Positions 9,707 through 35,165 of a stretch of 37,701 nt of DNA are shown in pieces. The stretch is taken from contig JBBTYK010000007.1 in the NCBI GenBank assembly GCA_038061815.1, forward strand, positions 1 to 37,701. Direction: 5' to 3'. Numbering within the stretch: position 1 is the stretch's first letter; every line of letters starts with the position of its first letter. The translations under genes were made by a program, and so were the position numbers. Source of the DNA: Patescibacteria group bacterium. GTDB taxonomy: Bacteria > Patescibacteriota > Patescibacteriia > Magasanikbacterales > JBBTXJ01. The notes below the pieces were generated by a model that was given only the letters and a program-made list of their open reading frames with translations, did not search any database and was not told where the DNA came from.

Positions 9707-11233
9707 GTGTACACTACCACCATGTCCCAATTCACGCGCTACACCCTGTTTTTTACAGCCGCGTTTCTGACTTTGCACGGGCTCTCGCTCCTCTCGTTTT
9801 TTGTTGAGCCGCTTCGGCCGGTGTTATTTTTTGTCTTGCTTGGAGCGGCGGCAGTTCTCGCGTTTTGGAAACCGGCGTACGCTGCGGTGCCTATTATTCT
9901 TGAACTACTCCTTGATTCAAGCGGCCATTTGTTTGAATGGCGCGGATTGTCGTTGCGATTACTGGTGTTCATCGTGACAATGGCCGTATGGACATTTCAC
10001 GCCATACGGCGCAAAGCACTATTGAAACAATTGCACACGCCATTTACCGCCATCTACGGCGCGATACTCGTTATCGTGGCGCTTGCGGCATATAACGGCT
10101 ATCTCAATGGACATGCGGTACGCGCAGTTATCGCCGACGCAATTCCGTTTTTGTATTTGGCGTTGTGGTATCCGTTACGCGCATTATTCCCTGAGCGAAG
10201 CGAAGCGGAGTCGAAGGGCAACGCTTCGACAAGCTCAGCGCACAATGTATTGGTACCACTCCTCCTCGGCTCCTTTCTCGGCGCCGCCATTCTTTCTCTC
10301 ATTGCGCTATTTCTTTTTTCATCCGGTTTGCAAGAAATCCACGGGCCGTTTTACACATGGTGGCGCGATTGGGTAGCCGGTAAAGCAACGAGCACGGGAT
10401 TTGGGTTTTATCGTATCGTAACGCCGTTGCATTTATTTTTGACCGCGCTGGTGCCGTTTGTTGTATATGTCATCCTTAAAATCCGAACTGAAGGAACTCT
10501 TCCCGTCATTGCGAGGAGTGAGTCCGACGAACGACGAAGCAATCTAATTATTAGATTGCTTCGCTTCGCCCGCGGCTTCGCTCGCAATGACAAATTATGG
10601 CTTCTTATCATCATCCTCCTCGTCCCCGTCATCAACTTCTCCCGCATCTATTTTCTCGCCATTATTCCAGCGACACTCATCATGGCATTAAAATTGCCGT
10701 GGAAAAAAGTGGCGCTAACGCTTATCATCATTGGCGCCGTTTCGCTTGCAGAATATGCTGTCGTCAATCTTGCGGCCTCGCGCGGGACATCGCTCGGTTT
10801 TGAATTTTTGACACAACAATCCCGTGGCATTATTGACCCGGAATCAGAAGCGTCGGCCTCCGCGCGCGCGGCCATACTCCCCCATTTGCTCGGGAAAATA
10901 AAAAACCGCCCGCTCTTGGGCGAAGGACTTGGCGCATCAGTCACGTATTACAATGCGTTTCTGGAAAAAGAGTCAACCACGCGGCATCTTGATTGGGGGT
11001 ATCTGGAACTTGCCGTGGAATTCGGCCTGTTTGTTGCCTTGTTCTTCCTTGGACTTCTCGTTTGGCTGTTTTATCACGGTTTTCGGAATCCTCTTGCCGC
11101 CAGTATTCTGGTTTTCCTTGCCGTGACGGCACTCACCACCCCCGCTTTGTTTCATGTGTACGGAATTACGCTTATTTTAGCGGTTTTATTGGCAACCAAC
11201 TTACTAAAACTTGACAAAGTTCAACAAGTATGA
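9707..11233 (+). CDS. Polytopic membrane protein, O-antigen ligase/polymerase (Wzy_C)-like
   Basis: 508 aa with about 12 hydrophobic segments. The C-proximal RPLLGEGLGAS motif is typical of O-antigen ligase-like proteins. The track start at 9707 is GTG. An ATG at 9722 (MSQFTRY) sits 7 nt after a TACACT -10-like hexamer and may be the true start. Confidence 0.65.
   Translation: MYTTTMSQFTRYTLFFTAAFLTLHGLSLLSFFVEPLRPVLFFVLLGAAAVLAFWKPAYAAVPIILELLLDSSGHLFEWRGLSLRLLVFIVTMAVWTFHAIRRKALLKQLHTPFTAIYGAILVIVALAAYNGYLNGHAVRAVIADAIPFLYLALWYPLRALFPERSEAESKGNASTSSAHNVLVPLLLGSFLGAAILSLIALFLFSSGLQEIHGPFYTWWRDWVAGKATSTGFGFYRIVTPLHLFLTALVPFVVYVILKIRTEGTLPVIARSESDERRSNLIIRLLRFARGFARNDKLWLLIIILLVPVINFSRIYFLAIIPATLIMALKLPWKKVALTLIIIGAVSLAEYAVVNLAASRGTSLGFEFLTQQSRGIIDPESEASASARAAILPHLLGKIKNRPLLGEGLGASVTYYNAFLEKESTTRHLDWGYLELAVEFGLFVALFFLGLLVWLFYHGFRNPLAASILVFLAVTALTTPALFHVYGITLILAVLLATNLLKLDKVQQV
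10189..10243 (+). repeat. GC-rich repeat inserted in-frame (ccctgagcgaagcgaagcggagtcgaaggg + cgcttcgacaagctcagcgcac)
   Basis: Encodes PERSEAESKGNASTSSAH in a loop of the membrane protein. The first half belongs to the same family as 22631-22660, 12311-12356 and 11797-11828. Confidence 0.75.
10505..10591 (+). repeat. 87-bp palindromic element inserted in-frame (11-bp terminal inverted repeats GTCATTGCGAG/CTCGCAATGAC; central 13-bp perfect hairpin)
   Basis: gtcattgcgag...CGAAGCAATCTAA tta TTAGATTGCTTCG...ctcgcaatgac. Arms were checked by hand. 87 nt is 29 codons, read as VIARSESDERRSNLIIRLLRFARGFARND. Confidence 0.85.
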
Positions 11234-21459: not shown

Positions 21460-21491
21460 TTTTACACAACCTTCCTGGAAGGAGGAACACT

Positions 21492-21917
21492 ATGGCGAGC
21501 GGTAGCGAGTGGAAAGAGGTGGAGATCGTAGGGCCGAGCACGCGCGAAGCGCACAAGGAGGTGTTCCGGTTTCGAGCGCTGGTGCCGCACGATTTCAAGG
21601 ACCTGAAGGAGCGTAGCGGCCCGCACTGGGCCGTCTGCATCACCGCTCCTGGCGGGGAGAGCGTGACGGTGCTGGACAACGAAGGCGAGGTGCACTTTTT
21701 CTCCAAGGTCCTCAAGGTCGTTGCCGAGATGCTCTACGGTGCGGAGCTCTACCGTCTGGACGCGCAAGTGGAGCGCGTACCGAACGGGATGGGTCATCCC
21801 TATCCGGGAATCGCGATGTCCCTTCGTGGCACCGCGGAACGGGGACAGCCCAAGCTGACCACGAAGTTCCGTCCAGACAACGGCGGCATCGGCGTGGAAG
21901 TGGAAATCACCCGCTAG
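21492..21917 (+). CDS. Hypothetical protein, 141 aa, no recognisable family; atypical composition
   Basis: The start ATG is 7 nt after a strong SD (ggaaggagg). It has its own promoter and terminator. In the first 60 nt I counted 39 G+C, against 27 of 60 for the adjacent alaS. Lys codons are 7 AAG to 1 AAA, whereas neighbouring genes favour AAA. Confidence 0.65.
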   Translation: MASGSEWKEVEIVGPSTREAHKEVFRFRALVPHDFKDLKERSGPHWAVCITAPGGESVTVLDNEGEVHFFSKVLKVVAEMLYGAELYRLDAQVERVPNGMGHPYPGIAMSLRGTAERGQPKLTTKFRPDNGGIGVEVEITR

Positions 21918-21926
21918 AGACGAACG

Positions 21927-21975
21927 CGCCGAGTGTGATTCTTGCGAAAGCAGGAATTGCCTCGGCGTTTTTTTA
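21927..21975 (+). terminator. Rho-independent terminator (CGCCGAG...ATTCTTGC gaaa GCAGGAAT...CTCGGCG + T7)
   Basis: A long hairpin, 7-bp outer stem and 8-bp inner stem with one G-U pair. It is followed by tttttttatt, whose last bases overlap the mnmA stop codon (rc of tta at 21973-21975). Confidence 0.75.
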
Positions 21976-23064
21976 TTGAATGACTCCCCCACCCAAACAT
22001 TCGTCGTTTTTGTAAAACACCGCAAACTGGCCGGGCGTGATGGCGCGCTGGGATTTTGAACAAATAACGAGGATATTTTTTCCTTGTTTCTGGATGGTGC
22101 ACCGCTGTAATTCCTGGCGGTGGCGGAAGCAAACAGCGCAGGTAAACGGCAAAACAGGCGCCTCAACAATCCAGTGTACATCCCCTACAGTAATTTCACG
22201 TGTAAATAAGCGTGAATCATTTTCCGGTCCAACGATGAGTTCGTTTTTCTTACTATCTTTTGCAACAACATACTGCGGCTTCCCGTTACTTTTTTGCGCC
22301 AGTCCGTGCCGCTGGCCGATGGTGTAATATGCCAAACCATCGTGCTCTCCAATCACCGCGCCGGCCGTCGTAACAATTTTTCCCGGCTTCGGCTTGATTT
22401 TCTGTTTCAAAAAATCCTTCATGTTGATTTCGCCGATAAAACACACGCCCATTGACTCCGCGCGTTCCGCGGTTGGCAAACCAAATTTCCGCGCAAGGGC
22501 GCGAACCTGCGGCTTGGTGTAGTCCCCAATGGGAAACAATGTGTTGGCAAGCTGCGCTTGAGTGAGTTGGTGAAGGAAGTAGGTTTGGTCTTTATTGCGG
22601 TCTTTGGATTGGAGGAGATGGTATCGTATACCCTTCGACTCGCCTCCGGCTCGCTCAGGGACTAATTTTGCATAATGCCCTGTCGCAATTTTGTCCGCGC
22701 CCAGTTTTTTTGCGGCCTTTAAAAACGACCCGAATTTTACCGTTGTGTTGCAGACAACATCCGGATTTGGCGTGCGGCCGGCGCGATATTCGCGGAACAA
22801 ATAATCCACCACGCCTTTGCGATATTCTTTTTGAAAATCCAACACCACAAGCGGAATGCCGAGGCGCGCCGCCACGCGCTCCGCATCACGCACATCATTC
22901 TTCCAATCACAAACACCCTGCACGTCTTTCGTATCCGTCCAGTTTTTCATGAAGGCGCCAACCACCTGATGCCCTGCGCGCACCAGAAGCGCCGCAGTCA
23001 CCGATGAATCAACGCCGCCTGACATGGCAACAATAATTTTATTCCGCACTTTCTTCGCCCGCAT
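21973..23064 (-). CDS. mnmA: tRNA-specific 2-thiouridylase (tRNA U34 2-thiolation)
   Basis: PP-loop IIVAMSGGVDSSV, then GHYA.., and C-terminal QFAVFY..ECLGGGVI. I place the start at ATG 23064 (MRAKKVRNKIIVAMSGG). The track's 47-aa N-terminal extension is not MnmA-like. Confidence 0.93.
   Translation of the reverse strand: MRAKKVRNKIIVAMSGGVDSSVTAALLVRAGHQVVGAFMKNWTDTKDVQGVCDWKNDVRDAERVAARLGIPLVVLDFQKEYRKGVVDYLFREYRAGRTPNPDVVCNTTVKFGSFLKAAKKLGADKIATGHYAKLVPERAGGESKGIRYHLLQSKDRNKDQTYFLHQLTQAQLANTLFPIGDYTKPQVRALARKFGLPTAERAESMGVCFIGEINMKDFLKQKIKPKPGKIVTTAGAVIGEHDGLAYYTIGQRHGLAQKSNGKPQYVVAKDSKKNELIVGPENDSRLFTREITVGDVHWIVEAPVLPFTCAVCFRHRQELQRCTIQKQGKNILVICSKSQRAITPGQFAVFYKNDECLGGGVIQ
22631..22660 (+). 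repeat. GC-rich repeat inserted in-frame in mnmA (cccttcgactcgcctccggctcgctcaggg)
   Basis: On the coding (minus) strand it reads cct gag cga gcc gga ggc gag tcg aag ggt, which is PERAGGESKG. It is 30 nt, or 10 codons. Confidence 0.75.
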
Positions 23065-23104: not shown

Positions 23105-24580
23105 TCACGGCACTCGGGCGGATGCCGTGCCGGAATACGGAGAATTGCCGATGCGATTGTATGCACGCACGCGATAGTAATACACGCCTGCCGGCAAACC
23201 GGCATCCGCGTATGAGGCGGTTAAAGCACCATCAAGAGAGGCAACCTGAATGAAACTCTGCTCGTCAACGCCGCGCTCCAGCAAAAATCCTTCCGTGTTC
23301 GTCGTGCTCCTCGTCCATGTTGAAACGAGAATGGTGGTACTCGCGGTTACGCGGAGATTCGCAGGAGCGCCGGGCGCGCGCGTATAACGAACCAAACGAT
23401 TACTGGCGGCGTACGTGGCGGAGCGGCCGCGCGCATTTGAGGCATAGATACGATAAGATAATCCGTCATCCGATGGTGCGCGGCGGTCAACATACGATGT
23501 GGTATTCGCCAGCGCGAACGATACATCGCGCACCGAACCGCGGTCATCGAAACGTTCAATGCGGAATTCCTGTTCATTTGTTGAATGGTCAATCCACTGA
23601 ATCACAACACCCTCATTAGTAGATGACGCGGCGGCGTTCGTGGGCGCTGCCGGCGGATTCACGGCATTTACTGCCGCAACTACCCCCGAAGACGCTGAAA
23701 AACCGACCAAATTAAACGCGCGAACACGATACTGTATCGTTTGGTCGCGCGGAATTGCATTGTGTTGATATGATGTCGCATTTGCCGCCGGACGCGCGAG
23801 TTCTGCCCATGGGCCGTCTGGACCGGTTACGCTTGATTCTACGACAAAACCATCTTCATTATTCGCGTTGTCACGCCAACGCAACATATTGGCAGCATTC
23901 TGATTCGTCGCGCGCAACTCTGTCGGCGCAGCCGGCAGCAACAATGGCCGATATTTCAAACGCACCGCAACGCGGCTCACGCGAGCGCCCAATGCCCCTC
24001 CGGCATATTCAAAACCAACCTGTAACGTACTTGTGGCCACCTTGGTAAAAACCGCTCTGCCCGTAAGAAAAACAGCAGATAATTCCACCGGCTCAACTCC
24101 TGATGCTCGCACCTTTCTTCCGCTGACAACGCGGCCGTTATTGATACGAGCGAGTGTGGTTATTTCACTTCGCGTATTGCCCTCGCTTGCGTTTGACGCG
24201 CACAATCGCATCTCAATAGCGGTTACTTGAGCAAAATCTGGAACGCGCCCAATGTCAACGGTAAATAATTCCTTTTTGCGGGCAGTCAATGTGGAAAGAT
24301 GTGTCGCCGTTCCATCACACGCTTCTTCGTTCACCATCGTCGCATGAACATCAGTCCCCTCAACAGACGGCGCCCATTCATTTTTGACGCCATCGCTAAT
24401 GGGCAAAAGCGTTTCGCTGTATAGCAACGCCGGAACTCTCGCGACTCCCTGGGCTTTGGATACGCGCGGCTGTAAGGAAACTGATACAAGGTTGGTGGTT
24501 ATTAAACTCACGCCAAGTACAAGCAACGCCGCGAAACCTATCTTTTCGCCGATACTAAAAAGTGGGGTCTTCTTTTTCAT
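23105..24580 (-). CDS. Membrane-anchored/secreted surface protein with three fibronectin type III-like repeats
   Basis: N-terminal hydrophobic anchor IGFAALLVLGVSLITT. Three ~95-aa repeats each start with P.AP(T/A)(E/N)L.. and end with a Y(R)V(R)A.N..G.S strand: IQYRVRAFNLVGFS, LSYRIYASNARGRS, YYYRVRAYNRIGNS. A strong SD (aaaggagg) precedes the ATG. Confidence 0.8.
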   Translation of the reverse strand: MKKKTPLFSIGEKIGFAALLVLGVSLITTNLVSVSLQPRVSKAQGVARVPALLYSETLLPISDGVKNEWAPSVEGTDVHATMVNEEACDGTATHLSTLTARKKELFTVDIGRVPDFAQVTAIEMRLCASNASEGNTRSEITTLARINNGRVVSGRKVRASGVEPVELSAVFLTGRAVFTKVATSTLQVGFEYAGGALGARVSRVAVRLKYRPLLLPAAPTELRATNQNAANMLRWRDNANNEDGFVVESSVTGPDGPWAELARPAANATSYQHNAIPRDQTIQYRVRAFNLVGFSASSGVVAAVNAVNPPAAPTNAAASSTNEGVVIQWIDHSTNEQEFRIERFDDRGSVRDVSFALANTTSYVDRRAPSDDGLSYRIYASNARGRSATYAASNRLVRYTRAPGAPANLRVTASTTILVSTWTRSTTNTEGFLLERGVDEQSFIQVASLDGALTASYADAGLPAGVYYYRVRAYNRIGNSPYSGTASARVP

Positions 24581-26042: not shown

Positions 26043-27656
26043 CTATTTCTTCAAATCTTGCAATGAGATGCCCGGCGCGTTTGGGTCAACGATGATGACA
26101 TTCTCAATCTGCCGCGAAGGCTGCAACTGACGCGGCTGACCACCGCTCTGCGGTTGACCGCCGTCTTTCTTTTTATGATGACGCTTGCGCTTATGGCGCG
26201 CGCCGTCAGGAGACGCCGCAGTATACGATGGAACGCCAGGGACAACAACGACCGGCCGCGGCGGAGGCGGCAGCACCTTGATAATCTCAATCCCCGCTTC
26301 CTCATCGTTCTCATCACGACGCGGCGTTACCGGCTGTCCGGGCGCCAGTTCACCAAATCCGCTCCATCGCGCAACTTTTTCTTCAATGACCTGCCGGCTG
26401 CGGCCATACCGTTCGCGCGAAACCGCAATCACCCTCTCCGTGCTCCCCGTGCGCTGCGCAATGGGCGGCAGCGTCAAGGCCGAGAACGGCTGCGACGCCA
26501 CGCCGTCAATCATAAGCCGCAAATAAATCTGATACTTCGGCAGATTCACGAGGTCAACAATCAAAAATTGCGGGTCAAATTCTTTTTCCAGCGCCTCGGC
26601 GTCCTCCGCGCCGATGCGGAAGGTAATCAGCGTTCCCACGTTGCCGAACACCGCATAGCGCACTTCTTCCGTCAGCTGCTCAATATACTGGTGCGCCATG
26701 ATGAGACTCAAATGATACTTGCGCGCTTCTGACAAAATGTTCGCGAACGACTCGGTGGCGAAATTTTGAAACTCGTCAACGTACAGGAAAAAATCCGGCC
26801 GCTCCGCTTCCGGCATATCCACGCGTTCCATCGCGGACAACTGAATTTTCGTGACAATCATGCCGCCCAACAATCGCGAATTATCCTCACCGATGCGTCC
26901 CTTTGACAGGTTCACAATCAAAATCTTGCCGCTATCCATAATTTCGCGGATATTGATGGTTGACTTCACCTGCGCGACGATATTGCGGATGACGGACGCG
27001 GACAAAAACTGTCCGATTTTGTTCTGAATGGCTGCGGTGGCTTCCGATGCAAACTTATCTGTGTACTTTGCGTATTCATCAACCCAGAACGCTTTTACCA
27101 CCGGGTCTTTGATTTGCGCAACCACCTTTTTACGATACACGGCATCGGCGAAAATCCGGTTGACGCCGAGCAACGTGCTTCCCGGACAATCCATGAGCGC
27201 CAGAATGGCGTTGTTCAGCAAATACTCCATACGCGCGCTCCACTGGTCAACCCAGATTTTTTTGAACACGCCCATGAGGCCACCGACCACCAAATGTTTG
27301 TGGTCAGGATTGATGGTTTCCAAAATGTTGAACCCGATTGGATATTCTAAATCGGCTGGATTGAAATACACCACGTCGTTAATGCGGTGAGGCGGAACGA
27401 AATCAATCATTTTTTCCGCGAAATCGCCGTGCGGGTCAACGAGCGCAAATCCGTGGCCGGCATACATATCCGACAACACCATATTTTCCAGCATCGTGGT
27501 CTTTCCCATGCCGGTTTTTCCGAGCACATACATGTGCCGCCGCCGGTCATCCAGTTTAATGCCAAAACGCCGGTTCTCATTCCGGAAGTTCGTCTGCGCA
27601 AACAGAGCGATGTCTTTTGTCACAACGGGTGTATGCAACGTTTGCATATTAAACAA
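26043..27656 (-). CDS. FtsK/HerA-superfamily P-loop ATPase, type IV secretion coupling protein (VirD4/TraD/TraG)-like, without N-terminal TM segments
   Basis: Walker A HMYVLGKTGMGKTT (nt 27498-27521) is followed by ALVDPHGDF. Walker B plus the TraG-D_C-like block is FFLYVDEFQNFATESFANILSEARKYHLSLIMAHQYIEQL...VFGNVGTLITFR. The C-terminal tail is Pro-rich and basic (HKRKRHHKKK). Its start overlaps the stop of the upstream gene by 8 nt. Confidence 0.8.
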   Translation of the reverse strand: MFNMQTLHTPVVTKDIALFAQTNFRNENRRFGIKLDDRRRHMYVLGKTGMGKTTMLENMVLSDMYAGHGFALVDPHGDFAEKMIDFVPPHRINDVVYFNPADLEYPIGFNILETINPDHKHLVVGGLMGVFKKIWVDQWSARMEYLLNNAILALMDCPGSTLLGVNRIFADAVYRKKVVAQIKDPVVKAFWVDEYAKYTDKFASEATAAIQNKIGQFLSASVIRNIVAQVKSTINIREIMDSGKILIVNLSKGRIGEDNSRLLGGMIVTKIQLSAMERVDMPEAERPDFFLYVDEFQNFATESFANILSEARKYHLSLIMAHQYIEQLTEEVRYAVFGNVGTLITFRIGAEDAEALEKEFDPQFLIVDLVNLPKYQIYLRLMIDGVASQPFSALTLPPIAQRTGSTERVIAVSRERYGRSRQVIEEKVARWSGFGELAPGQPVTPRRDENDEEAGIEIIKVLPPPPRPVVVVPGVPSYTAASPDGARHKRKRHHKKKDGGQPQSGGQPRQLQPSRQIENVIIVDPNAPGISLQDLKK

Positions 27657-29154
27657 CAGGCAAGTTGGGCGGCGGAGCGCCGGTTGCTTCTGCGGGCGCC
27701 TCGTGAGGCGCGGCGGCGGGGGCAGAGGCGCTCTCCCCTTCGTGCGGATGTCGTTTCTTATGAATCAATCCGATATCAGAACTGAACGGCGGCGGCGCTT
27801 CCGCGGTTGCCGATTTAATGGGAATACCGTGCGGCGCATCCTCAAACGGAATCTCCGTCGGCAAATATGACGGCGGCTGGGCGCGCTTCGCCTCAAGACG
27901 TTTCAACAGCGGCGTCTTCACCGTCATCACCGGGAAGTGCCACAACGTAGCCAGTTCTTCCGTGTTCAAAATAAATTCGTACCGTCCGGCCCACGTGCTC
28001 CGTTTTTGATACGCTCGCATGATTTTGGTGGCGCGGATATTTTTACGCGCCTCGGTAAAAACATAATGCGCGGCAACACCGGTCATTTTGTAATCCGGTT
28101 TCAAACTATTTGACGATTCATCGGAGAACTGTTTGATTGCGCCCACCAATCCATACATCACGCGGCTCTTGTCAAAACGCTCTTTCTCCGCCACATACAC
28201 CGCGCGCATTTTGCAGTTGAATCCAATTTTTGACACCTTAATTTCAACATCTTCAATAGTTTTCCGCTCGCCGGGCGTCAGCGCAAACATGCCAAAGGTC
28301 AGCTTCTCTTCCTTGGCCGACTCGGCGAACAATTCCAGCCCGAACCCGCTCGCAATCTCGCGCACGAGCGCAAACGGAAGGTCGCTCAATTTTTGAATCC
28401 ACGTTTCCTTTTTCTTCACTTCTTTCCCCATCAATTTTTTTGCCATTTCAAACCCTTTCGCTTTCCATGACTGCCCGATAGGTTTCACTAAAATCTGCAA
28501 CCACATCTGCTCCCCTTTCCCGATGCGGCTGAAGGATTCCAGCAACGCCGCCATCGGGTCCTTAAAGTATTCTTTGTCGTTCGGGTCGGCGAACGCTTTG
28601 TACGTTTTAATGGGGTAGTAGTGATTTTCCGTCAAGACCCATTCTACGCCCCAACAGCTATGAGTATCATTGGGATATTCAGTGGGAATACCTTTTACAT
28701 AATCCTCCACTTCGGTAATTTCCGCGTCGGGATACTGCGCATAAATGGCGGATTCCACGAGGTCGCGATATTTCTTCTCCGTGCGAATGAGAAACTGGGT
28801 GTATCCTTCAATGCTGACAATCTCAAAACTAAACCATCGCTGGTACTGTCCTTGCCAATATTTTTCCATGAGGTCTCGCGTGGCATGGCCGCCGGCAAGG
28901 TGCGCAAAGATATTTTCTACGGCGAGCGGCGACTGCACGTTATCTGATGGAACGTCAACGGCAAGCAATACCCACTGAAATCCGGACTGATATTTTCCAA
29001 CGCGCGTGTTGTAAAACACATAAAACCCCATCCAAAAAACGATAGGAAACAAGAAAATCCATCCGCCGATGCGTGTGCCGAATACGAGCACATCCCACGT
29101 GCTCGCCGTCGCTGCCATGTCGAGAAATTGCAGCCACGCGTCAGCGTATGACAT
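27649..29154 (-). CDS. Membrane-anchored protein of unknown function (501 aa), translationally coupled to the coupling-protein-like ATPase
   Basis: There is one clear N-terminal TM segment (GGWIFLFPIVFWMGFYVFY), then a ~380-aa soluble region (FSFEIVSIEGYTQFLIRTEKKYRDLVESAIYAQYPDAEI...), then a Pro/Ala-rich tail. I recognise no family motif. It lies 3 nt after the upstream small gene. Confidence 0.7.
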   Translation of the reverse strand: MSYADAWLQFLDMAATASTWDVLVFGTRIGGWIFLFPIVFWMGFYVFYNTRVGKYQSGFQWVLLAVDVPSDNVQSPLAVENIFAHLAGGHATRDLMEKYWQGQYQRWFSFEIVSIEGYTQFLIRTEKKYRDLVESAIYAQYPDAEITEVEDYVKGIPTEYPNDTHSCWGVEWVLTENHYYPIKTYKAFADPNDKEYFKDPMAALLESFSRIGKGEQMWLQILVKPIGQSWKAKGFEMAKKLMGKEVKKKETWIQKLSDLPFALVREIASGFGLELFAESAKEEKLTFGMFALTPGERKTIEDVEIKVSKIGFNCKMRAVYVAEKERFDKSRVMYGLVGAIKQFSDESSNSLKPDYKMTGVAAHYVFTEARKNIRATKIMRAYQKRSTWAGRYEFILNTEELATLWHFPVMTVKTPLLKRLEAKRAQPPSYLPTEIPFEDAPHGIPIKSATAEAPPPFSSDIGLIHKKRHPHEGESASAPAAAPHEAPAEATGAPPPNLPVV

Positions 29155-29452: not shown

Positions 29453-30346
29453 CTAGCGGCTGCCAACCCGATACCACGAAACGAGGAGCGGGCTCGCGAG
29501 GAAGATGGATGAGTAGACGCCGGAAATAAATCCGATAATAAGCGCCAGCGCAAACGGCTGGGTGCTGGCGCCGCCGAAGAAATACACCGCGATGAGCGAC
29601 AGCAGCGTGGTGAGCGTGGTATTGAACGAACGAGTGACCGTTTGCTCCACGCTTTCCGCAACCACCGTTTCAAACGGGTCATGGCGCCGCTTGAGCAAAT
29701 TTTCGCGAATACGGTCAAAGGTGACGATGGTGTCATTTACCGAAAATCCAAAAATGGTGAGCAGCGCCGTAACAAACAGCGCGTCCACCTCAATACCGGC
29801 AAACCGTCCAAGCACCGCAAACACGCCAGCGGGAATCGTGATGTCATGAAGCAGCGCGATAATCGCGCACAAGCCGTATTTCCACGAACTCACCGGCTCC
29901 GATACGCGGCGAAACGTCCATGCGATATACACAATAATCGCAAGCATAACGAGCACGATGGCGTAGAGCGTATTTTCGCGCAATTCTTTGCTGATGGTGG
30001 GGCCGATAGTGTCAAACCGCTCCTCGTGCCACTCGTTCGCGAATGCTTGATTCAGCGTTTCCGTCAGCGCCTCGTGTTTCTTCTCGTCAATAAACGCCGC
30101 ACGCACGAGATACCCCGCCGTTCCCAGCGGCTGGACCGTCGCGCGCTCCACGCCCGCATCCGTCACGAGCTGTTCAACGCGCGCCTTATCCGGCCGCGCG
30201 CCCGTGAATTGCAATTCCGTGAGCGTGCCGCCGGTGAAATCAATGCCAAAACGCAACCCAAACACAGCAATCGCAACAAGCGAAACGAGCGCCAATCCGC
30301 TGGAAAGGAGAAACCAATATCGTCGCGTGGTCACTACATTCACCAT
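29453..30346 (-). CDS. secF: Protein translocase subunit SecF
   Basis: LRFGIDFTGGT at the start of the periplasmic domain, and a C-terminal 6-TM core with FGFSVNDTIVTFDRIREN. I place the start at ATG 30346 (MVNVVTTRRYWF), directly after the secD stop at 30348-30350. Confidence 0.93.
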   Translation of the reverse strand: MVNVVTTRRYWFLLSSGLALVSLVAIAVFGLRFGIDFTGGTLTELQFTGARPDKARVEQLVTDAGVERATVQPLGTAGYLVRAAFIDEKKHEALTETLNQAFANEWHEERFDTIGPTISKELRENTLYAIVLVMLAIIVYIAWTFRRVSEPVSSWKYGLCAIIALLHDITIPAGVFAVLGRFAGIEVDALFVTALLTIFGFSVNDTIVTFDRIRENLLKRRHDPFETVVAESVEQTVTRSFNTTLTTLLSLIAVYFFGGASTQPFALALIIGFISGVYSSIFLASPLLVSWYRVGSR

Positions 30347-30347
30347 A

Positions 30348-32399
30348 TTATTCAACTTTTTTACGCGCGCCGAGCACGAGCCACGTTCCTTCTTTGATGT
30401 ACGGCTCAAGAAAACGCATGAATACGCGCGTAACGGTAATGGCGGAAAACATGCTCACGAGCACGCCGATGGCGAGCGTCACCGCGAATCCGCGCACCAC
30501 GCTCGTGCCGAACCAATACAAAATGGCGCAGGCAATCAACGTGGTGACGTTGCCATCGCGAATAGCCAGCCATGCACGCGCAAATCCTTCGGTCACTGCG
30601 CGCGCATACGTCCTGCCGTCGCGCAGTTCCTCTTTCATTCGTTCAAAAATGAGAATGTTCGCGTCAACCGCCATGCCGAACGACAAAATGAGACCCGCGA
30701 TGCCGGCGAGCGTTAGCGTCACCGAAAGTAATTTGAACAGCGCAAGCAGTACCAATCCATACACGATAAGCGCCAAGCCGGCCATCACACCCGACAATCG
30801 GTAATACAAAATCATAAACAACAGCACGAGCAAAAGTCCAACGATGCCGGCGCGCAGACTTTTTATGAGCGATGCGTGTCCCAAAACCGGCCCCACGGTT
30901 GATTGGCTCACAAGCTGTACCGGCAGCGGCAGCGCGCCAGCGTTCAGGCGCTGCGCAAGCGTCTTCGCTTCGTCAATGGAAAAACTGCCGGTAATCACGG
31001 CCTGACCGCCGCTGATTTTCTGCTGTACGGTTGGAGCGCTGATGATTGAACCGTCAAGAAAAATTGCCACTGGTTTGCCGATATTGCGGCCGGTGATTTC
31101 TTCAAACAAATCGCCGCCTTCATTATCAAATTGAAGTCCAACCTGCACCTCGCCGGTTTGCTGGTCAAACTGCACGGTCGCGCGGTCAAGCTGTCTTCCT
31201 GACAATGCTGTCCGCAGCCATGGGTCAAGTTCCGGCGCGATTTCCTCCGCCGTGGTGCGGTCAATCATGATATGGCGCGCCTCATACTGCTTTTCCTTGA
31301 GCTGCGCGTATTTATAAACGAGGTGAAAACCAAACGGCGTTTCCACAGGGTCGGAAATGGCGCCTTCCGGCAACGCAAAGGCAGCCTCTTCAAAATTGGG
31401 CGTCATCGCGCCGCGTCCGAATTCGCCGAGGTCGCCGCCAAGCTGCGCGCTACCGGAATCATCGGAATTTTTTTGAGCGAGTTCCGAAAAGTTGGCGATG
31501 GTCGCCTGCGCGCGAAGAGATTGCGCCTTTTCCAGCGCTTCGTCGCGCGTTCTATCCGATTGACATCGTTCCGCGCCTTGAAAACACACAAGGATATGGC
31601 GCGCAGAAACGGAACTGACCGCCACCCGTTCGCTTTCCACTTTGATGATGTGATACCCGATGTCGCTCTCCAATATATCGCGCGCCACCGCGCCCACCCT
31701 TCCTTTTTGCTGCGCAAACTGATAGAGCTGCTTTTGCAGCGTTTCTCCGGCAGAACTGACGAACCCAATATATCCGCCGCTCTCTTTCGTTTTTACATCC
31801 TGTGAAAATTCCTTCGCGTAATCGGCAAAATTTTTCGCACCTGACAGTACGATATTCAAAACTTCTTTCGCTTTTTTGCGCTCCGCGTCATTCGCGTCGC
31901 CGAGCTGTTTTTTCTGCGCATCCGTCAACTCCGGCTGCGGATTAGGATTTTGTTCCTTAAATTCAAGCAACGGCGTTTCGCCGATTTCCTTGATTGCCTG
32001 TTTCAAATCAATGACGCCAGGTAAATCCACGATGACGCGATACGTTTCGCCCGATACGTTGGTCTGCACAAGCGGTTCGGAAACGCCCATGGCATTCACG
32101 CGGCGTTCAATAACATCGCGCGCGCCGGCAACCGCGTCATCGCGCTCCGATGAAGGCACGCCTTTCGTGTCCACTTCATAGGTGAGATGCGCGCCGCCCT
32201 GCAAATCAAGACCCAAACGGTAATCTGGAATGTTCGGCTGCGGGAGCGAAAGGCCCGAACGCGCCTTTATTGCGCCGACAAGACGCTCATACGGCGCCGG
32301 AAAATCAAAAACGAGCGCTCCGAACATCAGCACAAGAATACCGAACAGCGCCCACTTGACGTTCATTCGGCTCATTTGTTTTGATTCCTGCTTTTGCAT
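30348..32399 (-). CDS. secD: Protein translocase subunit SecD with two parvulin-type PPIase domains inserted in the periplasmic P1 head
   Basis: SecD signatures: LGLDLQGG, DGSIISAPTVQQKISGGQAVITGSF, and the TM core GMAVDANILIFERMKEE. Residues ~155-372 contain ARHILV..GGDLGEFGRGAMTPNFEEAAFALPEGAISDPVETPFGFHLVYK (parvulin signature). A preceding degenerate copy is FADYAKEFSQD..SGGYIGFVS......GYHIIKVE. Confidence 0.9.
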   Translation of the reverse strand: MQKQESKQMSRMNVKWALFGILVLMFGALVFDFPAPYERLVGAIKARSGLSLPQPNIPDYRLGLDLQGGAHLTYEVDTKGVPSSERDDAVAGARDVIERRVNAMGVSEPLVQTNVSGETYRVIVDLPGVIDLKQAIKEIGETPLLEFKEQNPNPQPELTDAQKKQLGDANDAERKKAKEVLNIVLSGAKNFADYAKEFSQDVKTKESGGYIGFVSSAGETLQKQLYQFAQQKGRVGAVARDILESDIGYHIIKVESERVAVSSVSARHILVCFQGAERCQSDRTRDEALEKAQSLRAQATIANFSELAQKNSDDSGSAQLGGDLGEFGRGAMTPNFEEAAFALPEGAISDPVETPFGFHLVYKYAQLKEKQYEARHIMIDRTTAEEIAPELDPWLRTALSGRQLDRATVQFDQQTGEVQVGLQFDNEGGDLFEEITGRNIGKPVAIFLDGSIISAPTVQQKISGGQAVITGSFSIDEAKTLAQRLNAGALPLPVQLVSQSTVGPVLGHASLIKSLRAGIVGLLLVLLFMILYYRLSGVMAGLALIVYGLVLLALFKLLSVTLTLAGIAGLILSFGMAVDANILIFERMKEELRDGRTYARAVTEGFARAWLAIRDGNVTTLIACAILYWFGTSVVRGFAVTLAIGVLVSMFSAITVTRVFMRFLEPYIKEGTWLVLGARKKVE

Positions 32400-32456: not shown

Positions 32457-35165
32457 TTACGCTGCGTGACACTTTTTATATTTTTTCCCTGAACCGCACG
32501 GGCAGGGTTCGTTGCGGCCAGTTTTCGGCATCGGTTCAGCGCTCTTTTGCGCTCCCCCATCCCCGTTCTCCCCTTTTACCGCGCCGCGCATCTGAATCCC
32601 CTGTTTTTCAAGCAATGACGGCGCCATCACCGCGGCCGCGCCCATTTTGAAGATGGTGTTCGCCACATCATGCTGTATGGCGCCGAGCAATTCCTGATAC
32701 ATATAATACGTCTCTTTCTTGTACTCAACCAGCGGGTCGCGCTGGGCATATCCGCGCAAGCCGATGCCGCCGCGCAGATGGTCAATGGCAACCAAATGGT
32801 CAACCCACAGCGTGTCAATGGTGCGAATCAACAGCATTTTTTCCAATTCGCGCATGATGTCCGGATTGTCAACCGCCTGTTCCATCGCATCATACGTGCG
32901 CCGCGCCGCATCCGTGCACACCGCCACCGCGCGATTCACCGCATCCTCCGCGCCATGCTCCGCCGCAATCTTTTTCAGTTCATCAACCGTCACCGGCGCC
33001 AGCGGAATTATTTTTGAGAGCGCCTCAACAATCGCATCCGTTTCCCAGCCGTCCGCGCCCGCATGCGTTTCAATGACGCCGCGCACCTCTTCATCAACCA
33101 TTGTAAGAATTACGTCTCGAAGCGCGCGATATCCTTCGCTCGTTACTTCCAGCACGCCTTCCGCCAATTCCAAAATCTCGCGACGGCGGCGATAAATCGC
33201 CTCGCGATGTTTGTTCAACACGTCATCGTATTCAAGCAAGTGCTTGCGGATGTCAAAGTTGTGGCCTTCCACTTTCTTCTGCGCGGTTTCAATGGCTTTG
33301 CTCACCATGCCCGCCTCAATCGGCACATCTTCCGGCACTTTGAGCCGCGACATCATGGAACCGATGCGCTCACCGCCAAAAATACGCATCAAATCGTCTT
33401 CCACCGATACGTAAAACTGTGTGAAGCCCGGATCACCCTGCCGACCTGAACGACCGCGGAGCTGATTATCTATGCGGCGCGATTCGTGACGCTCCGTACC
33501 GAGCACGAACAATCCGCTCGCTTCACGCACGCGCGCTGACTCATCCGAATCCGGCGGATTGCCGCCGAGCACAATGTCAACACCGCGGCCAGCCATGTTC
33601 GTGGCAAGCGTCACGGCGCCGGCGCGTCCCGCCTGCGCGATAACCTCACCTTCACGTTCGTGGTTTTTCGCGTTCAGCATCTGGTACGGAATGCCCTCGC
33701 GTTCCAGCAACAACCCCAACTCTTCGTTTTTCTCAATGGAGATGGTGCCGAGCAACACCGGCTGTCCGCGTTCATGCAACTCTTTGACATGTTTCACTAC
33801 TGCGGCAAACTTTGCCGCCTCGGTGCGATAAATCCTATCCGGCTGGTCGGCGCGCCGGTCCGATTTGTTCGTGGAAATCACCACCACTTCCAACTTGTAA
33901 ATGTTCGCGAATTCCTCCGCCTCGGTCACGGCCGTGCCCGTCATGCCAGCCAATTTTTTGTACATGCGGAAATAATTCTGGAACGTAATCGTGGCCATAG
34001 TCTGACTCTCGCGCTGGATTTTCACGCCCTCTTTAGCCTCAATCGCCTGATGCAATCCTTCCGAATAGCGCCGACCAGGCAATTTGCGGCCCGTGAATTC
34101 GTCAACGATAACCACTTCGTCGTTTTCCACCACATAATGGCGGTCGCGCTGAAACAGCGTCTGCGCGCGAAGCGCCTGTTCCACGTGATTGGCCATCCGC
34201 ATGCCGCCGGCCGTGTAAATGTTTTCCACGCCGAGCCACTGTTCCATTTTTTTGATGCCTGCATCGGTGAGGTACGTTGAACGAAGTTTTTCGTCAACTT
34301 TATAATCATCTTCTTTCACCAAACGCCGCGCGAGTTCGGCAAATTTGTAATACAGTTCCGTTGCTTCTTCCGCAGGCGCGGAAATGATAAGCGGCGTGCG
34401 CGCTTCGTCAATTAAAATGGAGTCCACTTCATCAACAATGGCATACCCGTGGCCGCGCTGCGACATTTCCGCGAGCCGCCCCACCATGTTGTCGCGGAGA
34501 TAATCAAAACCGAATTCGTTGTTGGTGCCGTAGGTGATATCGCACTGGTACGCTTCCTGCCGCGCGCATGGACGCAGGTATTCATATTTCACTTTGAACG
34601 AACCGGTAGTGTCGCGTTCCGTGTCCTGCGTACTACCCTCATCGTGTTCTTCCGATTTACTGCGATACGACGGGTCATACATAAATGTCGCGCCCTGATG
34701 TTGAATGACACCGACCGAAAGACCGAGCGCATGGTAAATCTGCCCCATCCACACGGTGTCGCGGCGGGCCAAATAATCGTTCACCGTCACGAGATGCGCG
34801 CCCGTTCCCGCGAGCGCGTTGAGATAGAGCGCGAGCGTTGCGGTGAGCGTTTTTCCTTCACCCGTGCGCATTTCCGCAATCTGTCCGCGATGGAGCGCGA
34901 TGCCGCCTTTCAACTGCACATCATAATGACGCTGACCGAGCGTGCGTTTCGCCGCTTCGCGCACAGCGGCGAACGCTTCAGGAAGCAAATTATCAAGAGG
35001 TTCTTTTTCGAGCCGCTTCCGGAACTCCTCCGTTTTCGCCTTCAATTCATCATCCGTCAAGCGCACAAAATCCGGCTCAAAAGCGTTGATTTTCGCGACA
35101 AGAGGGTCCATCTGCCGCACAACTTTGGCGTTGGGATCCCCAAAGATTTTCGTCAATAGAGACAT
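32457..35165 (-). CDS. secA: Preprotein translocase ATPase SecA
   Basis: 902 aa. [19 protein letters not shown]-terminus, Walker [42 protein letters not shown], and the C-terminal zinc finger [13 protein letters not shown]. Confidence 0.98.

What the first reader, a model, noticed from the sequence alone, without database searches (positions are those of the whole stretch)
31284..31937. SecD with two parvulin-type peptidyl-prolyl isomerase domains inserted into its periplasmic head
SecD here is 683 aa. Between the conserved P1-base strand (..VDLPGVIDLKQAIKEIGETPLLEFKE) and the conserved P1-head segment (..GKPVAIFLDGSIISAPTVQQKISGG..) lie about 215 extra residues.

The second half of that insertion is a textbook parvulin domain: ARHILV...A.ATIANFSELAQKNSDDSGSAQLGGDLGEFGRGAMTPNFEEAAFALPEGAISDPVETPFGFHLVYK. 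The first half looks like a more degenerate copy: AKNFADYAKEFSQDVKTKESGGYIGFVSS...GYHIIKVE.

In model bacteria, parvulin-type chaperones are separate proteins that act at the exit of the Sec channel: PpiD in E. coli and PrsA in Firmicutes. Here the foldase appears covalently built into the moving head of SecDF. That would couple proton-driven substrate pulling to prolyl isomerisation or holdase activity. I do not know of a characterised SecD-PPIase fusion.
Basis: partly seen in the sequence, partly recalled or inferred. Interest (0 to 1): 0.65.

Follow-up and report, generated by a model that had tools for sequence, protein, structure and literature searches.

The report
SecD carrying a built-in tandem parvulin foldase
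This candidate-phyla-radiation bacterium has two parvulin-type prolyl-isomerase domains, one of them circularly permuted, spliced into the outer domain of the secretion motor SecD. Chaperones that are separate proteins in model bacteria are therefore fused to the secretion machine here, an arrangement that is conserved in relatives but has not been described or tested.

Summary
The 683-aa SecD (30348..32399, minus strand) carries a 243-residue insert (residues 151-393). Pfam finds two Rotamase stretches in it (E 1.4e-38) between SecD_1st and SecDF_P1_head.

It is not an artefact. All 120 best homologues, down to about 50% identity and from many independent assemblies, share the architecture. 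About 100 clusters at 50% identity span the junction. All relatives that carry a taxon name are Patescibacteria (CPR).

- **Site.** The insert sits in the short linker between the P1-base strand (LLEFKE) and the first P1-head strand. It is not inside the head.
- **Permutation.** Other CPR lineages carry one parvulin at the same site. In those, the canonical first strand with the catalytic His ('ASHILI') follows the last strand, so the domain is circularly permuted.
- **Tandem.** The window protein is a tandem of that unit. Domain 2 (262-366) reads as a canonical parvulin with intact catalytic residues.

The most likely function is a tethered extracytoplasmic foldase/holdase for Sec substrates. 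No activity has been tested and no paper describes the fusion. I class it as a new variant of a known kind.

The parts
30348..32399 (-). secD, 683 aa. Gene callers on other contigs start at Met9, giving 675 aa.
   Evidence: ORF. TIGR01129 scores 404.9 bits against a cut-off of 244.4. SecDF structures are the top sequence and fold hits. A 100% identical protein (P0001/P0122) occurs on other contigs.
32304..32363 (-). TM1 of SecD (residues 13-32), which places everything up to about residue 493 outside the cytoplasm.
   Evidence: The AF2 model has a helix at 2-32. Sequence NVKWALFGILVLMFGALVFD. SecD topology is taken from the solved homologues (PMC5974789).
31950..32237 (-). N-terminal part of the P1 base (residues 55-150), ending in the strand LLEFKE.
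   Evidence: Pfam SecD_1st 92-151. Aligns to Tt SecDF 28-116. AF2 strand E145-150.
31221..31949 (-). The whole inserted module (residues 151-393) in the base-to-head linker.
   Evidence: Boundaries from alignment with insert-free CPR SecDs and from the Pfam domain limits. Block-mean pLDDT is about 88-95 over residues 161-380.
31842..31922 (-). Long helix alpha-1 (residues 160-186), which leads from the base strand into domain 1. It is conserved in the one-domain and two-domain forms.
   Evidence: AF2 H160-186. T159 is invariant and N170 is 58/60. The same helix is seen in the single-type model, H137-162.
31632..31922 (-). Core of parvulin domain 1 (residues 160-256). It is divergent and has no first strand of its own.
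   Evidence: Alone it scores Rotamase 55 bits, matching profile positions 8-96 of 97. H250 is Asn in 30 of 60 homologues.
31302..31616 (-). Parvulin domain 2 (residues 262-366). It has canonical strand order and intact catalytic-site residues H268, S312, D314, M332, F336 and H359.
   Evidence: Rotamase profile positions 1-94, 86.9 bits alone. Residue conservation. Pin1's PPIase domain superposes over 114 columns at rmsd 2.5 A, TM 0.79-0.82 normalised to the target, 37% identity.
31563..31586 (-). Cys272 to Cys279, an invariant C-x6-C pair in the beta1-alpha1 loop of domain 2. It may form a disulfide.
   Evidence: Both Cys are 60/60 in alignment A1. Only a subset of two-domain cluster representatives have the pair. 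Coordinates verified.
31260..31286 (-). Trailing strand YEARHIMID (residues 372-380), inferred to be the permuted first strand that completes domain 1.
   Evidence: AF2 gives one continuous strand, E357-380, at pLDDT 93-94. Moving this strand in front of domain 1 extends the profile match by +6.5 bits for Rotamase_3 and by +5.4 bits against my own HMM, above all 30 shuffled controls. In single-parvulin SecDs the homologous position reads 'ASHILI'.
30924..31220 (-). P1 head (residues 394-492).
   Evidence: Pfam SecDF_P1_head 396-491, E 2.8e-33. Aligns to Tt SecDF from residue 157.
30405..30923 (-). TM2-TM6 of SecD (residues 493-665), including the GMAVDAN motif.
   Evidence: Pfam SecD_SecF_C 495-661. 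Aligned to Tt 'GAAVDGN'. D579 and N581 are invariant.
29453..30346 (-). secF, with its likely ATG at 30346, one base after the secD stop codon TAA.
   Evidence: Pfam SecD_SecF_C 5.4e-57 and Sec_GG. Junction sequence read.
32457..35165 (-). secA, directly upstream on the same strand.
   Evidence: Pfam SecA_DEAD 1e-122 and the other SecA domains.

Best explanation
The gene encodes the SecD subunit of the SecDF protein-export motor of a Patescibacteria (CPR) bacterium.

**Anatomy.** A 243-residue module of two parvulin-type peptidyl-prolyl isomerase folds has been spliced into the short linker that joins the P1-base strand to the first P1-head strand, on the outer face of the membrane. The building block is a circularly permuted parvulin with the order alpha1...beta4, then beta1. 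It occurs as a single copy at the same site in SecD of other CPR lineages. The window protein is a tandem of that unit.
- Domain 2 is made of the first unit's trailing strand plus the second unit. It reads as a canonical parvulin and keeps all active-site residues.
- Domain 1 is a divergent copy. Its missing first strand is supplied by the strand that follows domain 2, so the two domains are interlocked by two long strands.

**Inferred mechanism.**
1. An unfolded secretory protein leaves SecYEG and is captured by the SecD P1 head.
2. The tethered parvulin module sits next to that capture site. It binds the emerging chain, and domain 2 catalyses cis/trans isomerisation of prolyl bonds.
3. Domain 1 serves mainly as a binding or scaffolding domain.

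The module would thus do in cis what PrsA, PpiD or SurA do as separate proteins.

**Shown versus inferred.** Shown: the domain content, the insertion site, conservation of the architecture, and conservation of the catalytic residues. Supported by models: the permutation and the interlocking. Inferred only: PPIase activity, chaperone activity and any coupling to head movement.
For: **Architecture.** Pfam and NCBIfam scans, alignment to solved SecDF, and Foldseek hits to SecDF (E 5.5e-24) and to Pin1's PPIase domain (rmsd 2.5 A over 114 columns).

**Not an artefact.** All 120 best homologues, at about 50-100% identity and from NCBI, JGI, ENA and Logan assemblies, share the Pfam set. An identical protein occurs on other contigs.

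**Active site of domain 2 across 60 homologues.** H268 59/60, H359 60/60, S312 60/60, D/E314 60/60, M332 55/60, F336 60/60.

**Permutation.**
- Single-parvulin SecDs match Rotamase only from profile position 8-15, and the motif 'V[KR]ASHILI' follows their last strand.
- Moving that strand to the front extends the match to position 1 and adds 4.3, 8.1 and 8.0 bits.
- With my own HMM it beats all 30 shuffled prefixes in 6 of 7 cases.
- The AF2 model of a single-type SecD shows a beta4-turn-beta1 hairpin at block-mean pLDDT about 86-94.
- The window model instead shows two continuous 24-residue strands, 248-271 and 357-380.

**Functional precedent.**
- PpiD photo-crosslinks to Asp-359 in the SecD P1 head and is non-redundant with SecDF (PMC7793623).
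- AlphaFold docks the parvulin domains of SurA on the SecDF P1 head, and SurA-holotranslocon complexes are seen by EM (PMC9987972).
- The M. pneumoniae PPIase lipoprotein Mpn444 crosslinks to SecD (bioRxiv 10.1101/2024.09.05.611430).
- The P1 head binds precursor proteins (PMC5974789).

**Gene context.** secA-secD-secF lie together on one strand.
Against: - No activity has been measured for any member.
- Domain 1 has lost the catalytic histidines in most homologues (N250 in 30/60, R376 in 41/60).
- Some single-copy lineages have fully degenerate domains (P0179, P0191, P0233, P0270). Catalysis is therefore not required for the insert to be kept.
- Parvulin domains of PpiD and of SurA (P1) are known to lack PPIase activity (my own knowledge).
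- The strand pairing that interlocks the two domains is inferred from DSSP strings. I could not read the model coordinates.
- pTM is only 0.48, so the position of the module relative to the head, the base and SecYEG is not predicted reliably.
- I could not check whether these genomes lack stand-alone parvulins.
Confidence: 0.7

Rival explanations
1. The module is a non-catalytic chaperone or docking domain. It binds unfolded chains or partner proteins but does not isomerise prolyl bonds, as with the parvulin domain of PpiD or the first parvulin domain of SurA.
For: Domain 1 is degenerate in most homologues. Several single-copy lineages have lost the catalytic residues yet keep the insert (P0179, P0191, P0233, P0270). 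PPIase activity is dispensable for the in-vivo function of SurA (abstract of PMC2556385 as listed, and my own knowledge).
Against: Domain 2 keeps every catalytic-site residue in 59-60 of 60 homologues that are only about 50% identical overall. The well-preserved single-copy forms keep 'ASHILI', 'SEDPGS' and 'FG[YFW]H[IV]I'. This pattern points to selection on the active site.
Confidence: 0.2
2. The insert is mainly mechanical or regulatory. It would act as a strut or lid at the base-head hinge that restricts or gates the swing of the P1 head, or that contacts SecYEG, the cell wall or the S-layer. Substrate folding would play no part.
For: The insert sits exactly in one of the connections between the base and the head. 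The same linker accepts unrelated inserts in Chloroflexi, including low-complexity ones. The site is therefore permissive, and an insert there need not be a foldase.
Against: A purely mechanical role does not explain the conserved parvulin active site. It also does not explain why several CPR lineages carry a parvulin at this site, rather than some other fold.
Confidence: 0.07
3. Assembly chimera or frameshift: two separate genes, secD and a parvulin gene, have been joined artificially.
For: None found. The window comes from a metagenome-type assembly, so this had to be considered.
Against: The parvulin module is nested inside SecD, with SecD sequence on both sides in one frame. The same nested architecture appears in more than 120 homologues from independent assemblies, in 13 of 80 loci from a genome scan of one genome per species, and in about 99 of the best 150 cluster representatives.
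Confidence: 0.01

Closest known systems
SecDF (T. thermophilus 3AQP/5YHF, D. radiodurans 5XAN/5XAP; E. coli SecD and SecF)
   Same: TM1, P1 base, P1 head and TM2-6 are all present, with a separate SecF next door and the conserved TM4 'GxAVDxN' motif. The protein scores well above the TIGR01129 cut-off. Foldseek and phmmer both rank SecDF first.
   Different: It carries 243 residues of tandem parvulin in a base-to-head linker that is 13-17 residues long in minimal SecDs and about 40 in Thermus.
PrsA (the lipoprotein foldase of Firmicutes)
   Same: PrsA is an extracytoplasmic, membrane-tethered parvulin that acts on proteins leaving the Sec channel in single-membraned bacteria. PrsA models give the best parvulin hits in NCBIfam (92 bits) and in the PDB (6VJ4, E 1.2e-15).
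   Different: There is no lipobox and no N/C chaperone domain. The score is far below the PrsA cut-offs (92 against 343). The tether is SecD itself, and the parvulin unit is circularly permuted and duplicated.
SurA (two tandem parvulin domains, P1 inactive and P2 active)
   Same: Both have two consecutive parvulin folds, with the first degenerate and the second catalytically intact. SurA aligns across both (query 183-362). AlphaFold docks the parvulin domains of SurA on the SecDF P1 head (PMC9987972).
   Different: The N- and C-terminal core chaperone module that defines SurA is absent. The score is 75 bits against a cut-off of 394. The domains here are interlocked through permuted strands and are not inserted in a chaperone core.
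PpiD/YfgM at the E. coli Sec translocon, and Mpn444 of M. pneumoniae
   Same: Both are membrane-anchored PPIase-domain chaperones (a parvulin domain in PpiD) that sit beside SecYEG and physically contact SecD. PpiD crosslinks to the P1 head (PMC7793623). Mpn444 crosslinks to SecD.
   Different: Those are separate polypeptides that associate non-covalently. Here the association is covalent.
Single-parvulin SecD of other CPR lineages (loci L008-L012 and L073; clusters P0156, P0168, P0194 and others)
   Same: They share the insertion site, the long alpha-1 helix and the permuted strand order. They are clearly homologous to the window's module.
   Different: They have one unit where the window protein has two. 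Their beta4 and beta1 strands form a hairpin, whereas in the window model these run on as two long strands linking the two domains.

Membership tests
SecD (TIGR01129, protein translocase subunit SecD) | Whole-protein HMM score above the curated cut-off | tested here: met
   404.9 bits against a cut-off of 244.4. The match spans residues 62-661 across the insert.
SecD (TIGR01129, protein translocase subunit SecD) | Topology of TM1, a large extracytoplasmic P1 (base and head), then five TM helices, with the RND-type fold | tested here: met
   Pfam SecD_1st, SecDF_P1_head and SecD_SecF_C. AF2 helices 2-32 and 504-667. Foldseek to 5YHF, 5XAN and 3AQP at E 1e-20 to 1e-24.
SecD (TIGR01129, protein translocase subunit SecD) | Conserved TM4 Asp motif used for proton conduction, and a partner SecF | tested here: met
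   'GMAVDAN' aligns to Tt 'GAAVDGN'. D579 and N581 are invariant. secF is adjacent. Proton conduction itself was not tested.
Parvulin / PpiC-type PPIase (PF00639, PF13616) | Profile score above the gathering threshold | tested here: met
   132.2 bits against 21.7, in two stretches. Domain 1 alone scores 55 bits and domain 2 alone 86.9 bits.
Parvulin / PpiC-type PPIase (PF00639, PF13616) | Fold with the order beta1-alpha1-alpha2-alpha3-beta2-alpha4-beta3-beta4 | tested here: met
   Domain 2 meets it: Pin1's PPIase domain superposes at rmsd 2.5 A with TM 0.8 normalised to the target. Domain 1 and the single-copy relatives have the same elements in a circularly permuted order, with beta1 last.
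Parvulin / PpiC-type PPIase (PF00639, PF13616) | Active-site residues: two His on beta1 and beta4, Asp or Cys after alpha2, and the Met/Phe proline pocket | tested here: met
   Domain 2 has H268, D314, M332, F336 and H359, conserved in 55-60 of 60 homologues. Domain 1 in the window has H250, D201 and H376, but the family consensus has lost both His.
Parvulin / PpiC-type PPIase (PF00639, PF13616) | Measured cis/trans prolyl isomerase activity | not testable with these tools
   Needs a biochemical assay.
PrsA foldase (NF002827, NF002846) | Whole-protein score above the cut-off, a lipoprotein signal, and an N/C chaperone domain flanking the parvulin | tested here: not met
   92.4 bits against 343, and 82.5 against 361. 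Only the parvulin part matches. There is no lipobox, and the N-terminus is SecD TM1.
SurA (NF008038) | Whole-protein score above the cut-off, and an N- plus C-terminal core chaperone module | tested here: not met
   75 bits against 394. The match is confined to residues 235-362.
PpiD | An N-terminal anchor followed by a SurA-like chaperone domain with an inserted, inactive parvulin | not tested
   No PpiD model appeared among the 25 NCBIfam families shown out of 34 matched. The flanks of the insert are SecD, not a chaperone domain.

The most novel reading that the evidence does not exclude
The fusion acts as a natural 'Rosetta stone' showing that parvulin chaperones work directly on the SecD P1 head. 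The circular permutation would also be functional. It moves the attachment points to the beta1-alpha1 loop beside the catalytic cleft, so the active site would face the substrate-binding cavity of the head. Proton-driven swings of the head would then feed the emerging chain through the isomerase, giving mechanical coupling of translocation and folding catalysis in one polypeptide. In genome-reduced CPR bacteria this would replace free PrsA-type foldases.
Probability: 0.25. Interest if true: 0.8.

Novelty: new variant of a known kind. Interest (0 to 1): 0.62.

Why it matters
How proteins are handed from the Sec channel to extracytoplasmic folding factors is still debated. Contacts of PpiD, SurA and Mpn444 with SecD are recent findings based on crosslinks, low-resolution EM or AlphaFold docking.

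A conserved natural fusion of a parvulin to SecD, next to the substrate-binding P1 head, is independent evolutionary evidence that these two activities belong together. It also offers a single-chain system in which to study the hand-over by structure, mutagenesis and single-molecule work on head motion.

I found no published precedent for a circularly permuted parvulin, or for a tandem in which one domain borrows its first strand from beyond the other. Both are of interest for domain evolution.

For CPR biology, the fusion suggests how very small genomes keep secretion-coupled folding.

Tried and rejected
- **Assembly or frameshift artefact.** Rejected. The insert is nested in frame and conserved across independent assemblies.
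- **Filing as PrsA or SurA.** Rejected. The scores are far below the curated cut-offs and the defining chaperone modules are absent.
- **Census by genome scan.** I replaced it with a junction-spanning profile searched against 1.84 billion representatives. Many of those hits are fragments, so the figure of about 100 clusters is approximate.
- **Origin from a neighbouring gene.** No stand-alone parvulin ORF lies within about 10 kb of secD in any of the 80 loci, and none is elsewhere in the window.
- **Foldseek on the single-type model.** No parvulin chain appeared in the top 50. This fits a permuted order defeating a sequential aligner, but it is not evidence on its own, so I did not use it.
- **Strand pairing.** A simple 2-residue-turn register in the single-type hairpin would not put the two His opposite each other, so the exact register stays open.
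- **Whole-genome absence of prsA, ppiD and surA.** This could not be tested, because only 10-kb flanks are retrievable.
- **Shuffle control.** One locus (L010) had a single shuffled prefix that scored higher than the real strand.
- **Literature.** Six full-text searches found nothing on a SecD-parvulin fusion or on permuted parvulins. Subscription journals are not covered.
Full report
**1. What is there**

The finding lies inside a 683-aa ORF at 30348..32399 on the minus strand. Its coordinates, 31284..31937, translate to residues 155-372.

Pfam places the domains in this order:
- SecD_1st, 92-151
- two Rotamase stretches (PF00639, E 1.4e-38, 132 bits against a cut-off of 21.7; best stretch 268-362)
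- SecDF_P1_head, 396-491
- SecD_SecF_C, 495-661

NCBIfam's SecD model TIGR01129 scores 404.9 bits against a cut-off of 244.4, with the match running across the insert.

phmmer against PDB sequences puts T. thermophilus SecDF first (3AQP, E 1.2e-86). Residues 55-148 align to Tt 28-116 and residues 393-664 to Tt 157-425, so about 245 residues here stand where Thermus has about 40. PrsA, SurA and Pin1 chains match the region in between.

**2. Context**

secA (32457..35165) lies directly upstream. secF follows secD, with its ATG at 30346, one base after the secD stop codon.

The rest of the window is ordinary housekeeping: clpB, a priA-like gene, def, fmt, glycosyltransferases, a flippase, rpoA, alaS, mnmA and murB. 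There is no tRNA and no other parvulin ORF.

Among the closest named relatives are 'Patescibacteria group bacterium' (the P0005 cluster, 77% identity) and 'Candidatus Magasanikbacteria' (about 51%). The organism is therefore a CPR bacterium. CPR cells are generally regarded as single-membraned (my own knowledge), so the module is extracytoplasmic rather than periplasmic in the strict sense.

**3. Not an artefact**

All 120 best homologues share the same Pfam set. They are about 50-100% identical, 658-716 aa long (one is a 996-aa SecDF fusion), and come from NCBI, JGI, ENA and Logan assemblies. A 100% identical protein is encoded on other contigs. The parvulin sequence is nested in frame between SecD segments.

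**4. Exact insertion site**

I aligned the P1 region with insert-free CPR SecDs. The insert lies between the base strand '...LEF(K/R)E' and the first head strand '(W)xxTxL(S/T)G'.

In the 80 loci from a genome scan of one genome per species, this linker is 13-17 residues in the shortest SecDs and up to 295 in the longest. It is an insertion hot spot. Some Chloroflexi carry 90-200-residue inserts there, either low-complexity or without any Pfam match.

The module is therefore at the base-to-head junction, not inside the head fold.

**5. The unit is a circularly permuted parvulin**

I classified the 80 loci with HMMs cut from my alignment:
- **Two parvulin domains.** Five loci, with titles of Uhrbacteria, Parcubacteria and Patescibacteria, plus two labelled Gammaproteobacteria that are probably mislabelled.
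- **Peregrinibacteria.** Two SecDF fusions with a very degenerate first copy.
- **One parvulin at the same site.** Six loci, titled Buchananbacteria, Kerfeldbacteria, Moranbacteria, Patescibacteria group bacterium, Saccharibacteria and Lysobacteraceae; the last label is probably an error, since the SecD is of the CPR type.
- **No insert.** The remaining 67 loci: other CPR, Chloroflexi, Cyanobacteria, Melainabacteria and others.

Pfam matches the single copies only from Rotamase profile position 8-15, so the first strand is missing on the N-terminal side. The alignment shows where that strand went. After the last strand ('FGYHIIKK') and a variable acidic linker comes 'V[KR]ASHILI', the textbook first strand of a parvulin with its catalytic His. 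The P1 head follows immediately.

Three tests support the permutation:
- **Pfam re-scoring.** Moving the strand to the front extends the Pfam match to position 1 and adds 4.3, 8.1 and 8.0 bits in three proteins. Domain 2's own genuine first strand contributes a similar 4.1 bits.
- **Shuffle control.** With my own canonical HMM the gain is 2.5-8.8 bits. It exceeds all 30 shuffled-prefix controls in 6 of 7 cases.
- **Model.** An AF2 model of a single-type SecD (P0156) shows 'GFHIIKKTDEREA', a two-residue turn, then 'EKEVKASHILIK', as a beta-hairpin at block-mean pLDDT about 86-94.

**6. The window protein is a tandem of that unit**

The secondary-structure elements run in this order:

| Element | Residues |
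|---|---|
| alpha1 | 160-186 |
| helices | 191-198, 202-205 |
| beta2 | 210-214 |
| alpha4 | 220-232 |
| beta3 | 237-244 |
| beta4 | 248-255 |
| beta1 ('ARHILV') | 264-271 |
| alpha1' | 285-298 |
| beta4' ('GFHLVY') | 357-363 |
| beta1' ('YEARHIMI') | 372-380 |

Pfam reads beta1 plus the second unit as a canonical Rotamase, which I call domain 2. Pin1's PPIase domain superposes on the model over 114 columns at 2.5 A, with TM about 0.8 normalised to the target.

That leaves domain 1 (160-256) without a first strand of its own. The model gives two continuous 24-residue strands, 248-271 and 357-380, at pLDDT 88-95. The simplest reading is that they pair with each other across both domains, so that 372-380 completes domain 1.

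Moving 368-381 in front of domain 1 extends the profile match. The gain is 6.5 bits with Rotamase_3 and 5.4 bits with my own HMM, above all shuffles. I could not read the coordinates, so the pairing remains an inference.

**7. Catalytic competence**

Across 60 homologues that are about 50% identical overall, domain 2 keeps these residues:

| Residue | Conservation |
|---|---|
| H268 | 59/60 |
| S312 | 60/60 |
| D/E314 | 60/60 |
| M332 | 55/60 |
| F336 | 60/60 |
| H359 | 60/60 |

An invariant Cys272-x6-Cys279 pair in the beta1-alpha1 loop fits an extracytoplasmic disulfide. It is present only in a subset of the two-domain representatives.

In domain 1 the corresponding histidines are Asn (30/60) and Arg (41/60) in the family. 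The window protein happens to keep both, H250 and H376.

Some single-copy lineages are fully degenerate (P0179, P0191, P0233, P0270). Domain 2 is therefore probably an active isomerase. Domain 1, like SurA's first parvulin domain, is probably a binding or scaffold domain.

**8. How common**

I searched a 96-position profile spanning the SecD-base/parvulin junction (residues 119-214) against 1.84 billion cluster representatives. It found 1561 proteins at E <= 1e-3, 123 at <= 1e-10 and 11 at <= 1e-30.

By my count about 99 of the best 150 cover both sides of the junction, and many of those are fragments. The remainder match only one half of the profile: the parvulin half (often in several stretches, as in multi-parvulin proteins) or the SecD-base half. 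Thirty-one full-length representatives fall into single, degenerate-single and double classes.

The fusion is thus an established but restricted family, on the order of 100 clusters at 50% identity. Every relative that carries a taxon name is CPR.

Public annotation calls these proteins plain 'SecD'. NCBI names three fragments of one cluster 'SecD', 'MMPL family transporter' and 'peptidylprolyl isomerase'.

**9. Mechanism**

Established background, from the review PMC5974789: SecDF uses the proton gradient. Its P1 head has a cavity that crosslinks to precursor proteins, and it swings between membrane-facing and upright forms.

Parvulin chaperones are already known to meet SecD non-covalently:
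- PpiD crosslinks to Asp-359 of the P1 head and is non-redundant with SecDF (PMC7793623).
- SurA binds the holotranslocon, and AlphaFold docks its two parvulin domains on the P1 head (PMC9987972).
- The PPIase lipoprotein Mpn444 crosslinks to SecD in M. pneumoniae.

The CPR fusion makes this association covalent. My best explanation (confidence 0.7) is a tethered foldase/holdase that receives chains captured by the head, with domain 2 catalysing prolyl isomerisation.

The rivals are:
- a purely non-catalytic chaperone or docking module (0.2)
- a mechanical or regulatory strut at the hinge (0.07)
- an artefact (0.01)

The low pTM of 0.48 means the position of the module relative to the head is not predicted reliably.

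**10. Comparison and novelty**

The protein is a member of the SecD family and contains genuine parvulin folds. It is not PrsA (92 bits against a cut-off of 343) and not SurA (75 against 394), and it lacks their defining chaperone modules.

Six full-text searches found no description of a SecD-parvulin fusion or of a circularly permuted parvulin. Subscription journals are not covered, and domain databases will display the Pfam architecture without comment.

I rate it a new variant of a known kind, with interest 0.62. A Sec specialist would find a natural SecD-foldase fusion, and its permuted interlocked tandem, notable and experimentally useful. Both components and their functional association are already known, however, and no function has been shown here.

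Noticed in passing
window 31563-31586 (-), Cys279 and Cys272: An invariant C-x6-C pair (60/60 in alignment A1) sits in the beta1-alpha1 loop of parvulin domain 2 and may form a disulfide. Only a subset of two-domain cluster representatives have it; others read 'HILIQYVGAEQA' or 'HILIAYKGAE'.
   Followed up: partly
L047:9833-11782, L052, L066:9758-11602, L039, L069, L041, L078:8852-10948: The same base-to-head linker of SecD is an insertion hot spot in Chloroflexi. L047, L052 and L039 carry 133-198-residue inserts; Pfam was run on L047, L066 and L078 and matched nothing in their inserts. L066, L069 and L041 carry Thr/Ala/Pro-rich low-complexity inserts. L078's extra sequence looks like a duplicated base segment.
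   Followed up: partly
window 31650-31652 and 31272-31274 (-), H250 and H376: The window's domain 1 keeps both positions equivalent to the catalytic histidines, although the family consensus has lost them (Asn 30/60, Arg 41/60). Domain 1 might therefore still be active in this lineage.
   Followed up: no
window 26043-29154 (-): A VirD4/TrwB-like coupling-protein ATPase (26043..27656) overlaps by 8 bases a 501-aa ORF with N-terminal hydrophobic segments and no Pfam match (27649..29154). The pair lies directly downstream of secF and may belong to a type-IV-like secretion or DNA-uptake system.
   Followed up: no
L006:5251-8697, L007:865-4062: Peregrinibacteria encode a single-chain SecDF (1066-1149 aa) with the same module. 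Their first parvulin copy is almost unrecognisable and carries extra inserted segments, and the trailing strand reads 'YKFASILY' or 'YKYEILEF'.
   Followed up: partly
L001, L002, L016, L022, L027 (titles 'uncultured Gammaproteobacteria'); L009 ('Lysobacteraceae'): These MAG records carry SecD genes of the CPR type, three of them with the parvulin insert. The taxon labels in the record titles are probably wrong.
   Followed up: no
protein cluster P0005 (members P0125-P0127): NCBI names three partial fragments of one SecD cluster 'MMPL family transporter', 'protein translocase subunit SecD' and 'peptidylprolyl isomerase'. Automated naming depends on which piece of the fusion was assembled.
   Followed up: yes
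window 4980-6335 (+), 9707-11233 (+), 21462-22181 (-), 23105-24580 (-): Three sizeable ORFs (451, 508 and 239 aa) have no Pfam match. A fourth, of 491 aa, has only a weak C-terminal fibronectin-III hit just below Pfam's cut-off.
   Followed up: no
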